From NCBI RefSeq assembly GCF_006345805.1, contig NW_021826249.1, positions 1 to 36,351 of the forward strand: a stretch of 36,351 nucleotides of DNA. Direction: 5' to 3'. The first letter of the stretch is position 1. Each line of letters opens with the position of its first letter. This DNA is from Octopus sinensis (lineage: Eukaryota). Positions 33,737 through 36,351 of the stretch are shown here, piece after piece. The position numbers are program-made.

Positions 33737-36351
33737 TGGGGGGAGGGAGGAAACATCAGTAATATTGCCCAGCAGTAAACATCATGAAATGTTTCCGGCT
33801 TAGTTGTCCGATATCGATTTCAAAACAAAGTTAAACTGGTTTATTACGAAATCTTTTTCGATGAAGTATGATTCTTTCAAACTTCTTGTTCATTTGTCTA
33901 GTCAAATATGAAAAATGCTTTAATTAACAACTTACTAGAATCCTGTTGTTAACCGTGTTTAATAATCAAGTGAAAACTGTAATAGATCGTTTGTTATACA
34001 GACATAAAATAAATAATAGGATAAAATGGGGTTCTTGTTTATACGGACAGATTTGGGGGGAATTTAAGTACTTAAACACGCGTTTTTGATTTAATGACGA
34101 ACATTCTGTAATTTTCTGTATAAATCTGGAGGCGAAGTACGAAAGAGGTCAGAAAGTGGAACTGTTGATGACAAATCAATCGACATAAATCAAAGCATTC
34201 CTATAAGAACACAATGGAGAATGCGCTTCTTGAAAGTAAGTTAAGTAATTTATAATGAATAGATTAGACAAACCTTGTCGGCAGAAGGAGTTTAGTCTGA
34301 TACTGATACACCTCATCGTTCCAGTCGCATTGAACATGCTTACAGTTGAGAGTTACTTCTGAAATCGACCTTTGGTCCACTGTCCCGCACTGAATTCAAT
34401 GACACGCCTTGAGAACATATACAAACAAATATAATTAAGAAGAAGAATTTTTAATTCATTAAATCTATAAAAAATATTTAACATTTATATTTTATTAAAA
34501 ATTATTAATTACTAAAATAGTAATTTTTGCTTTTATAAATTTTATTGTTGAGAACAACATTTAACTCCGTAAAGCTTCAACGACGCGAGTCATTTATAAA
34601 GTCCACGAAATTTGTTGGTGGTGATTCGTCTTCGAACTTATTTGAAGGTGATCACTAGCTATGGCCATGGCTCTCTGGGCTGCCAGAAATGTATCCCTTT
34701 TATCGGGAGCAAAAGCACTTGGTAAGTTTCGTTTTTAATCTGTGATATTCATATTTTGTATTTTTTTTTAAGATTTTTGTTTTTTTTAATCCACCCCAAC
34801 ATTGACAAACTGACAACACTGACATACATTACAACAGTTTTCGAAGATAATCATAAATATTTGATTAACAATAATTTATTTCATATGCCACTGTCTCACC
34901 TTCTTTTCTTTACATAATACCTCTATATGAAGCATCTGTTAAACTAAGGGTATCTATAAACAAATCTCCTGCGGGTTAGTGGTACTTTAACGGTGACAAA
35001 ACCTCCCAGTCCTATTTGTTGACCTGAAATGCAGTGATCGCGTGAAACATAACTAATAGCTTGTATTTTGAAATATTTTATTTTCCTTAATTATATTGAG
35101 ATGCTGTACCCTTAGTCATTTTAGAACCTCTTAACTCCAGGAATCAGATTAAGCATGTGGATGGAAGAAGTGCAGTTCTATGTTTACAGAGAACTCTTAA
35201 AGATTTGGCAAACATTACAGAATGGGTGTTGTTATTTTGCTCAAAGCCAACATTGTTGGAACATATATGATTATAAGTATTTAACGTATAACCATTCGAA
35301 AGGTCGCCATCATATATTTACTTAATAAATAATGCACACTGAATTACATTATCGAATGTATCCTTTTTTTAAAAAAATTCTTTTGGGAAGTGATTTGAAA
35401 GAAATTTGACTGCTATTTCTAACGGGTCGAGCGAGAACGCCATCGTTAAGAGGCATGCAATGCCGTTCGAAGAAAGAAAGACAGAAATTGACAATACAGG
35501 ATCTAGTGAGAAAACTGGTTCATTAAGGGTGGGTATATTGAGTGCTTCAGTAAAAAAAAATAATTAAAAAACGCCCTATATAAATACGTATAGGTTTTAA
35601 ACTTTGGCACAAAGCCGGCAACTTCGGGATAGGGGTTAAGTTGATTACATCCATCCAGTATTCAACTGGCACTTATTTCGACGACCACGAAAGATAAAGT
35701 ATGAAAGATAAAGCCGACCTCGGCTGTATTTGTACTCAAAAGGTAAAGCCGGAGGAAATGCCGCTAAGGATTTTGTCCGGCTCAGTAACGATTCTGCCAG
35801 CTGGTCGCCTTACCTTATAAATATATATTGGTTTCAAATTTCGCTCAACATCAGCAATATCGGGGGAGCAATAAGTCGATTATATCGGCCCCAATGTACA
35901 ACTTCTACTTATTTGGCTGATTTTCAGATGAGGACGCCCACATTTCTCCATTTTGAGGGTGAATTTTCCAATTTTTTTTTCTCATCACAGCCTTTCAAAT
36001 AACAAGGGACATCTTTTTATGAAAAAACATTTTTTCCATCTCCCCCGCTTCGCTACTCCATTCCTTGCTTTTTCACTCTAACAAGTATTGAGGTTTTCAA
36101 TTTCTTTCTCCCAATAACCCCTTTTATGCTATTCAAAGTATAATACATGGTCAAAAAGGTTCACAGACAGTCTGCTGGAGACGTACACATGCATATACCA
36201 GTATGTATATATATATATATAATATATATATATATATGTATGTATGTATATATGTATATATATATGTATGTATGTATATATGTATGTATGTATATATGTA
36301 TGTATGTATATATGTATGTATGTATATATGTATGTATGTATATATGTATGT

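What the first reader, a model, noticed from the sequence alone, without database searches (positions are those of the whole stretch)
34274..34727. HADHA head-to-head with a second mitochondrial-type gene (candidate HADHB) across 323 bp
Seen: two divergent ATG exons (64 nt and 61 nt, both ending in phase 1 at GT donors), each encoding a basic peptide without acidic residues. The spacer is tiny and TE-free, although the neighbouring introns have swollen to up to ~19.6 kb. Known: human HADHA and HADHB, the two trifunctional-protein subunits, are head-to-head on a short shared promoter. Inference: this is the same arrangement in a probable mollusc, implying a very old co-regulation constraint.
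Basis: partly seen in the sequence, partly recalled or inferred. Interest (0 to 1): 0.7.

Follow-up and report, generated by a model that had tools for sequence, protein, structure and literature searches.

The report
Octopus HADHA and HADHB head-to-head
The two genes for the mitochondrial fat-burning "trifunctional protein" start back to back only 323 bases apart in this octopus contig, as in humans; this is a real but already expected arrangement.

Summary
The window is a whole 36,351-bp contig of Octopus sinensis.

- **HADHA, minus strand.** Exon 34274-34337 is the first coding exon of the NCBI-named trifunctional enzyme alpha subunit. Three more HADHA exons follow, after introns of 19,588, 4,660 and 1,818 nt.
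- **HADHB, plus strand.** Exon 34661-34721 encodes 20 residues. 14 of 20 are identical, without gaps and from Met1, to the N-terminus of the named beta subunit of Argonauta hians. BLASTP gives E=1e-7 and tblastn against the window E=3.8e-4. The empirical score is 69, against a next best of 24 among 672 ATG-led peptides of the window.
- **What is missing.** No thiolase exon lies in the 1,630 nt left before the contig ends.
- **The spacer.** It is 323 bp from ATG to ATG, 29% G+C and unique within the window. It keeps its CpGs in a CpG-poor contig.

Promoter activity, transcription start sites and the downstream splice were not tested.

Novelty is low. The human pair shares a 390-bp bidirectional promoter, and HADHA-HADHB is already listed among gene pairs conserved across animals (PMC8974095, PMC3514665).

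The parts
34274..34337 (-). HADHA (trifunctional protein alpha) first coding exon, 64 nt, phase-1 end, donor gtttgt
   Evidence: Identical to residues 1-21 of NCBI-named O. sinensis HADHA model P0002. 6 of 13 identical to Argonauta HADHA residues 6-18, E=0.004. Boundaries checked.
34338..34660 (.). 323-bp ATG-to-ATG spacer; holds both 5' UTRs and the presumed shared (bidirectional) promoter
   Evidence: 29% G+C, with a 34440-34559 core at 5-20% G+C. 10 CpGs, all in the two flanks. CpG o/e 1.46 against 0.41 for the window. No other copy in the window. No tandem repeat. Promoter activity is inferred, not tested.
34661..34721 (+). HADHB (trifunctional protein beta) first coding exon, 61 nt, phase-1 end, donor gtaagt
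   Evidence: 14 of 20 identical to Argonauta hians HADHB residues 1-20, E=1e-7. tblastn of P0366 against the window E=3.8e-4, best hit of 9 HADHB queries. Ungapped score 69 against next best 24 among 672 peptides, z=8.6.
34722..36351 (+). Start of HADHB intron 1, running off the contig (at least 1,630 nt)
   Evidence: No HADHB-like hit for residues 22-472 anywhere in the window. 28 plus-strand ORFs of at least 20 aa that overlap 34722-36351 were read, and none looked like thiolase. The 7 of them that are at least 50 aa were also scanned against Pfam without a match.
14686..34273 (-). HADHA intron 1, 19,588 nt, with transposon remnants and microsatellites
   Evidence: (Mariner 15202-15991, RVT_1 29668-30615).
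14641..14685 (-). HADHA exon 2 (45 nt)
   Evidence: tblastn of P0002; ag/gt flanks.
9910..9980 (-). HADHA exon 3 (71 nt)
   Evidence: tblastn of P0002, P0003 and P0005; flanks.
7958..8091 (-). HADHA exon 4 (134 nt), start of the enoyl-CoA hydratase domain
   Evidence: Pfam ECH_1 E=2e-4, 21.2 bits, below the 27-bit cut-off as expected for a 45-aa piece. 76% identical to Argonauta HADHA and 58% to scallop HADHA.
4955..5033 (-). Terminal exon of the NCBI 130-aa model; probably repeat-derived and not part of the real enzyme
   Evidence: Matches P0002 residues 106-130 only. Full-length HADHA of Argonauta and scallop have no counterpart. A 48%-identical second copy lies at 3196-3258.

Best explanation
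This is the 5' end of the Octopus sinensis HADHA-HADHB locus. [quoted passage not shown] Each first exon encodes the start of an N-terminal mitochondrial presequence.

The most likely function of the spacer is a compact shared promoter that keeps the two subunits of one complex co-expressed in matched amounts, as in human.

Shown here: the identity of both exons, their divergent orientation, the distance between them, and intact splice donors.

Inferred: presequence function, transcription start sites, bidirectional promoter activity and co-regulation.

The contig breaks both genes. HADHA residues beyond about 105 and HADHB residues beyond 21 lie elsewhere in the assembly.
For: - HADHA. P0002 is 100% identical to the exon-4 query, is named by NCBI, and lies on a contig of the window's own length. 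Its pieces map exon by exon to 34337-34274, about 14685-14641, 9980-9910 and 8091-7958.
- HADHB. 14 of 20 identities from Met1 with the named Argonauta HADHB. tblastn E=3.8e-4. Empirical rank 1 of 672 with z=8.6.
- Linkage in a second cephalopod. The Argonauta HADHA and HADHB records both sit on a contig of 35,661,330 bp, which is consistent with linkage there. Adjacency could not be seen.
- Spacer. Unique in the window, with CpG o/e 1.46 against 0.41 for the window.
- Literature. The human genes lie head-to-head on 2p23 with one bidirectional promoter region (PMC5983392, passage). A 390-bp human HADHA/B promoter drives near 1:1 bidirectional expression (PMC8974095, passages). HADHA-HADHB is named as a conserved microsyntenic pair, r=0.79 (PMC3514665, passages).
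Against: - No expression data. Transcription start sites are unknown, so 323 bp is the ATG-to-ATG distance and not the inter-TSS distance. Upstream non-coding exons cannot be excluded.
- No thiolase exon is on the contig, so the splice from 34721 is unverified.
- The HADHB match rests on 20 residues and one reference species.
- The contig is short (36 kb) and holds only gene fragments. It could be a haplotig or a partial duplicate rather than the functional locus.
- 6 TATA-like matches were found in the spacer. I place little weight on them, because 4 of the 6 lie in or beside the AT-rich core, where chance matches are likely.
- None of the other motifs scanned gave support: no CCAAT box, GC box, AGGTCA or GGTCA nuclear-receptor half-site, CRE half-site or NRF-1 core was found, only one palindromic E-box-like site on both strands and 6 weak Inr-like matches.
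Confidence: 0.85

Rival explanations
1. The contig is a partial duplicate or an uncollapsed haplotype fragment of the HADHA/HADHB promoter region. The exons are real in sequence, but this copy is not the expressed locus.
For: The contig is only 36,351 bp and ends in repeats: (GTAT)n at 36201-36351 and a reverse-transcriptase/RNase H remnant at 119-1272. It carries only HADHA exons 1-4 and HADHB exon 1. The NCBI model on it is a truncated 130-aa protein ending in a probably repeat-derived exon.
Against: All five conserved exons are open, with intact ag/gt boundaries. NCBI placed a HADHA model here. A haplotig would still show the true arrangement, so the head-to-head conclusion would stand.
Confidence: 0.1
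2. The plus-strand exon is a chance ATG...GT open frame or a promoter-upstream non-coding transcript, and HADHB lies elsewhere.
For: The frame is only 28 codons from stop to stop. 'No acidic residue and at least 2 basic' is common, at 107 of 672 background peptides, and the hydrophobic moment is unremarkable, at the 36th percentile. No thiolase exon is present in the window.
Against: 14 of 20 identities and 18 of 20 positives with the Argonauta HADHB N-terminus, in register from Met1. The score of 69 compares with a maximum of 24 for the other 671 peptides. The donor is a perfect GTAAGT, and there is a purine at -3 and G at +4 of the ATG.
Confidence: 0.03
3. The genes are adjacent and divergent but independently regulated. 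Two separate core promoters happen to lie close together, with no shared element and no selective constraint on the adjacency.
For: The CpGs and higher G+C sit in two separate flanks (34338-34420 and 34560-34660), split by a roughly 120-bp core at 5-20% G+C. No shared motif or inverted repeat was identified. No expression data exist here.
Against: The human promoter is functionally bidirectional with near 1:1 output (PMC8974095). The pair is conserved across animal lineages and strongly co-expressed (PMC3514665). The neighbouring intron grew to 19.6 kb with transposon remnants while the spacer stayed at 323 bp.
Confidence: 0.12

Closest known systems
Human HADHA/HADHB head-to-head pair on 2p23 with a shared bidirectional promoter
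   Same: The same two orthologous genes, the same divergent 5'-5' orientation and a spacer of a few hundred bp. The spacer here is 323 bp from ATG to ATG. The human promoter fragment is 390 bp in PMC8974095 (passage). PMC5983392 (passage) describes the head-to-head layout and the common promoter region.
   Different: The octopus spacer is very AT-rich (29% G+C, core 5-20%) and shows no GC box or CCAAT box. Promoter activity, start sites and co-expression are untested in octopus. The octopus first introns are large: HADHA intron 1 is 19.6 kb.
Conserved ancestral microsyntenic pairs (CAMPs) of Irimia et al. 2012, which name HADHA-HADHB
   Same: Two unrelated genes kept adjacent across animal lineages, mostly 5'-5', with short intergenic distance and co-expression (passages read). 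The octopus pair fits every structural prediction.
   Different: That survey had no cephalopod. Its one mollusc named in the passages I read was Lottia. The supplement that would say in which lineages this pair is kept could not be opened, so whether a mollusc was already recorded for this pair is unknown to me.
Bacterial fadI-fadJ (thiolase, then hydratase/dehydrogenase) operons
   Same: The same two enzyme families are encoded side by side. In 70 of 80 bacterial loci fetched, a HADHB-like gene lies directly beside the HADHA-like gene. Balneolota copies are 56-59% (beta) and 43-46% (alpha) identical to the cephalopod proteins.
   Different: In bacteria the genes are co-directional (beta upstream of alpha, 70 of 70) and presumably co-transcribed. 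In octopus and human they are divergent, with separate transcripts, introns and presequences.
HSPD1/HSPE1 (Hsp60/Hsp10) head-to-head pair
   Same: Another pair of mitochondrial partner proteins kept 5'-5' with a spacer under 1 kb and a bidirectional promoter from human to unicellular relatives (PMC3514665, passage).
   Different: Different genes. Cited only as the textbook analogue of the logic.

Membership tests
HADHA (mitochondrial trifunctional protein alpha subunit) gene | Orthology to named HADHA proteins | tested here: met
   Exon 4 alone retrieved 13 proteins. The top one is NCBI-named O. sinensis HADHA (100%), then Argonauta (76%) and scallop (58%). Exons 1-4 map piece by piece.
HADHA (mitochondrial trifunctional protein alpha subunit) gene | N-terminal enoyl-CoA hydratase domain | tested here: inconclusive
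   Pfam ECH_1 matches exon 4 at E=2e-4, 21.2 bits. This is under the 27-bit cut-off because only profile positions 17-59 of 251 are on this exon.
HADHA (mitochondrial trifunctional protein alpha subunit) gene | C-terminal 3-hydroxyacyl-CoA dehydrogenase domains | not testable with these tools
   Residues beyond about 105 are not on the contig.
HADHB (mitochondrial trifunctional protein beta subunit) gene | N-terminal exon orthologous to a named HADHB | tested here: met
   14 of 20 identical to Argonauta hians HADHB residues 1-20, E=1e-7. tblastn E=3.8e-4 and z=8.6 against 671 background peptides.
HADHB (mitochondrial trifunctional protein beta subunit) gene | Thiolase N- and C-terminal domains with catalytic residues | not testable with these tools
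   No thiolase-like sequence in the window. The exons lie beyond the contig end.
Bidirectional-promoter gene pair | Divergent (5'-5') orientation with less than 1 kb between the gene starts | tested here: met
   ATGs at 34337 (minus) and 34661 (plus), 323 bp apart. Transcription start sites are unknown.
Bidirectional-promoter gene pair | One promoter region active in both directions; co-expression | not testable with these tools
   No expression data or assay. The only indirect hint is the CpG o/e of 1.46 in the spacer against 0.41 in the window.
Conserved ancestral microsyntenic pair HADHA-HADHB (Irimia et al. 2012) | The same two orthologues adjacent in several animal lineages | tested here: met
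   Adjacency is shown for this octopus contig. The pair is named in the paper. The lineages listed in its supplement could not be read.

The most novel reading that the evidence does not exclude
The alpha-beta adjacency may be older than animals: a linkage inherited from a bacterial fadI-fadJ-type operon, turned from tandem into head-to-head and then held for the whole of animal history.

In the sample fetched here, both animal subunits fall beside the same bacterial groups (Bacteroidota/Balneolota), and in those groups the two genes are neighbours on one strand.
Probability: 0.15. Interest if true: 0.55.

Novelty: new member of a known kind. Interest (0 to 1): 0.25.

Why it matters
It adds a cephalopod to the animals in which the two trifunctional-protein genes share a very short divergent spacer. 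It does so in a genome where the adjoining intron grew to 19.6 kb, which fits selection on the spacer.

There is also a practical gain. HADHB exon 1 and HADHA exons 1-4 sit on a small contig apart from the rest of both genes. Gene models for both in this assembly are therefore probably truncated, and the 130-aa 'HADHA isoform X1' should not be read as a real short isoform.

The 323-bp spacer is a compact candidate bidirectional promoter for cephalopod work.

The biology itself is expected from human data and from a published survey of conserved gene pairs.

Tried and rejected
I sent stop-to-stop ORFs instead: 256 minus-strand ORFs of at least 38 aa and 150 plus-strand ORFs of at least 50 aa.
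The frame is only 28 codons from stop to stop, so no valid longer query exists. I did not pad it.
3. The first scan of bacterial genomes with Argonauta HADHA alone found no relative. The second scan, with an 8-protein alignment, gave 80 loci.
4. A search with the Balneolales thiolase P0015 listed 120 best hits. All 120 were 64-100% identical to the query, every hit that carries a name is a Balneolales-group bacterium (many carry none), and no animal protein appeared.
6. The supplement of Irimia et al. 2012 was closed.
7. Rfam gave 0 matches and tRNA search 0 genes in the window.
8. The hydrophobic moment of both peptides is unremarkable, at the 55th and 36th percentiles. I dropped it as evidence.
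9. The motif scan of the spacer gave nothing usable.
Every search used single exons or database proteins.
No eukaryotic genome collection was on hand, so gene order in other molluscs could not be examined.
12. Paper searches: 'HADHA, HADHB, head-to-head' found 5 papers; 'HADHA, HADHB, bidirectional promoter' 7; 'HADHA, HADHB, microsynteny' 1; 'HADHB, cephalopod' 0.

Full report
**What the window is.** The window has no N and is 36,351 bases long. I searched one exon alone (7957-8091, minus strand, 45 aa, P0001) against the protein collection. It returned 13 proteins. The best is a 130-aa protein that NCBI names 'trifunctional enzyme subunit alpha, mitochondrial isoform X1 [Octopus sinensis]'. 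It is 100% identical to the query and lies on a contig of 36,351 bp. Nothing in it looked human.

**HADHA on the minus strand.** Local tblastn of that model and of full-length HADHA from Argonauta hians (P0003, 764 aa) and scallop (P0005) places the exons piece by piece. I checked the boundaries by eye and by script.

| Exon | Coordinates | Length |
|---|---|---|
| 1 | 34274-34337 | 64 nt |
| 2 | 14641-14685 | 45 nt |
| 3 | 9910-9980 | 71 nt |
| 4 | 7958-8091 | 134 nt |

- All four exons have ag acceptors (exon 1 excepted) and gt donors.
- The introns are 19,588, 4,660 and 1,818 nt.
- Exon 4 gives the only hydratase signal among 256 minus-strand ORFs scanned: ECH_1, E=2e-4, below the cut-off for so short a piece.
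- Exon 1 resembles the Argonauta N-terminus, with 6 of 13 identical, E=0.004.
- HADHA residues beyond about 105 are not on the contig.
- The model's last 25 residues come from an exon at 4955-5033. Full-length HADHA proteins have no counterpart to it, and a 48%-identical second copy lies at 3196-3258. I take it for a repeat-derived false or poison terminal exon.

**The plus-strand exon.**
- It runs from 34661 to 34721: ATG, 20 codons plus one base, then gtaagt.
- No thiolase-like ORF lies in the 1,630 bases left before the contig ends. I read 28 ORFs of at least 20 aa overlapping that stretch and ran tblastn with nine HADHB proteins.

**How I obtained a cephalopod HADHB.**
1. I aligned eight animal HADHA proteins and scanned bacterial genomes with the alignment. 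An earlier scan with one protein had found nothing.
2. In a Balneolales locus I took the thiolase gene directly upstream of the HADHA-like gene (P0015).
3. I searched P0015 against the 50%-identity representatives. The best hit, P0016 (472 aa, 60% identical), has a 47-residue N-terminal extension.
4. Against the PDB, P0016 scores 712.8 bits to the human beta subunit 5zqz_B. So it is an orthologue and not the human sequence.
5. A search with P0016 shows it is gastropod-like, 91% identical to an Elysia protein. Among the 120 best hits it lists 'trifunctional enzyme subunit beta, mitochondrial-like [Argonauta hians]' (P0366, 472 aa).

**The decisive comparison.**
- P0366 begins MAMALCATRNISILAGAKSLG.
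- The window exon reads MAMALWAARNVSLLSGAKAL, followed by the first base (G) of a split codon.
- BLASTP gives 14 of 20 identities and 18 of 20 positives, with no gaps, from Met1, E=1e-7 for the pair.
- tblastn of P0366 against the whole window puts this as its best hit, E=3.8e-4.
- The ungapped BLOSUM62 score is 69, while the best of the other 671 ATG-led open 20-mers of the window scores 24 (z=8.6).

The plus-strand exon is therefore the first coding exon of HADHB. Both Argonauta proteins are recorded on a contig of 35,661,330 bp. That fits linkage in that species, but I could not see the distance between them.

**Chance controls that do not help.**
- 'Basic without acidic residues' is common: 107 of 672 background peptides.
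- The helical hydrophobic moments are ordinary.
- An ATG-open frame that abuts GTRAGT occurs at 18 distinct donors in the window. Only 2 of these also lack D/E and have at least 2 K/R.

**The spacer.**
- The 323 bp are 29% G+C.
- A core at 34440-34559 has 5-20% G+C and no CpG. All 10 CpGs lie in the flanks next to each ATG.
- CpG observed/expected is 1.46, against 0.41 for the window. These numbers rest on few sites.
- The region has no second copy in the window and no tandem repeat.
- HADHA intron 1 carries Mariner and reverse-transcriptase remnants and many microsatellites.
- TATA-like strings are found, but 4 of the 6 lie in or beside the AT-rich core, where I would expect chance matches. 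No other motif I scanned gave support.

**Mechanism.** By analogy with human, the spacer most likely acts as one compact promoter region. It would fire in both directions and keep the two subunits of one enzyme complex in step.
- PMC5983392 (passage) states the head-to-head layout on 2p23 with a common bidirectional promoter region.
- PMC8974095 (passages) used the 390-bp human promoter and measured transcript ratios near 1:1.

In octopus this is inference. Start sites, activity and co-expression are untested.

**Novelty.** Irimia et al. 2012 (PMC3514665; passages read) define pairs kept adjacent in at least four of eleven animal lineages, and they name HADHA-HADHB among the strongly co-expressed ones. 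A search for 'HADHB' with 'cephalopod' found 0 papers, and 'HADHA, HADHB, microsynteny' found only that paper. So the octopus case is a new member of a known arrangement.

**Side observation.**
- In 70 of the 80 bacterial loci, a HADHB-like gene lies directly upstream of the HADHA-like gene on the same strand, and in none does it lie on the opposite strand. Of the 10 loci without one, 6 have under 600 bp of upstream flank.
- Balneolota and Bacteroidota copies are the closest to the mollusc proteins for both subunits.
- In the FastTree trees, four mollusc HADHB join 4 Bacteroidota and 3 Balneolota rows (support 99; 69 rows). Three animal HADHA fall in a set of 18 rows with 6 Bacteroidota and 4 Balneolota (support 100; 79 rows).
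- The sample is biased, because the loci were picked for likeness to animal HADHA. The trees are unrooted and quick. This is a lead and not a result.

**Left out.** I built and searched no joined spliced model. Exons were searched one by one.

Noticed in passing
window 4955-5033 (-) and 3196-3258 (-): The NCBI 130-aa 'HADHA isoform X1' ends in an exon (TIFLSICL...LIY, then a stop) that full-length HADHA proteins lack. A 48%-identical second copy lies 1.7 kb away. It is probably a repeat-derived false or poison terminal exon, called because the contig ends before the real exon 5.
   Followed up: partly
window 1-1272 and 36201-36351: Both contig ends are repeats: a retroelement remnant (DUF7047 at 119-586; RVT_3/RNase H at 616-1272, plus strand) and a (GTAT)n array running to the last base. 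This probably explains why the assembly broke inside both genes.
   Followed up: no
window 15202-15991 (+), 7506-7739 (+), 29668-30615 (+): Degraded Mariner/Mos1-type transposase pieces (HTH_48 E=1.3e-20, Transposase_1 E=9e-12; a weak HTH_48 at 7506-7739) and a reverse-transcriptase ORF of 316 aa (RVT_1 E=3.6e-12), all inside HADHA introns.
   Followed up: no
window 26218-26400 (-): Weak match of a 61-aa ORF to the rhodopsin-family 7tm_1 profile (E=3.8e-4, 20.5 bits, below the 30.5-bit cut-off) inside HADHA intron 1. It could be chance or a receptor pseudogene fragment.
   Followed up: no
window 18483-18752, 3991-4200, 24973-25517: Minisatellites of 62/127 bp and of 69 bp, and a long imperfect (AC)n tract that explains the strong negative GC skew at 25-26 kb.
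   Followed up: no
loci L001-L080, e.g. L010:2112-3416 and 3495-5618: Bacterial relatives keep the two genes side by side on one strand, beta then alpha, in 70 of 80 loci. Balneolota and Bacteroidota copies are unusually close to animal proteins: beta up to 59-60% and alpha up to 46% identical. They group with the animal sequences in quick trees of both subunits.
   Followed up: partly
proteins P0003 and P0366 (Argonauta hians): The HADHA and HADHB records of Argonauta both list a contig of 35,661,330 bp. The two genes are therefore on one chromosome-scale contig there. The distance between them could not be seen.
   Followed up: no
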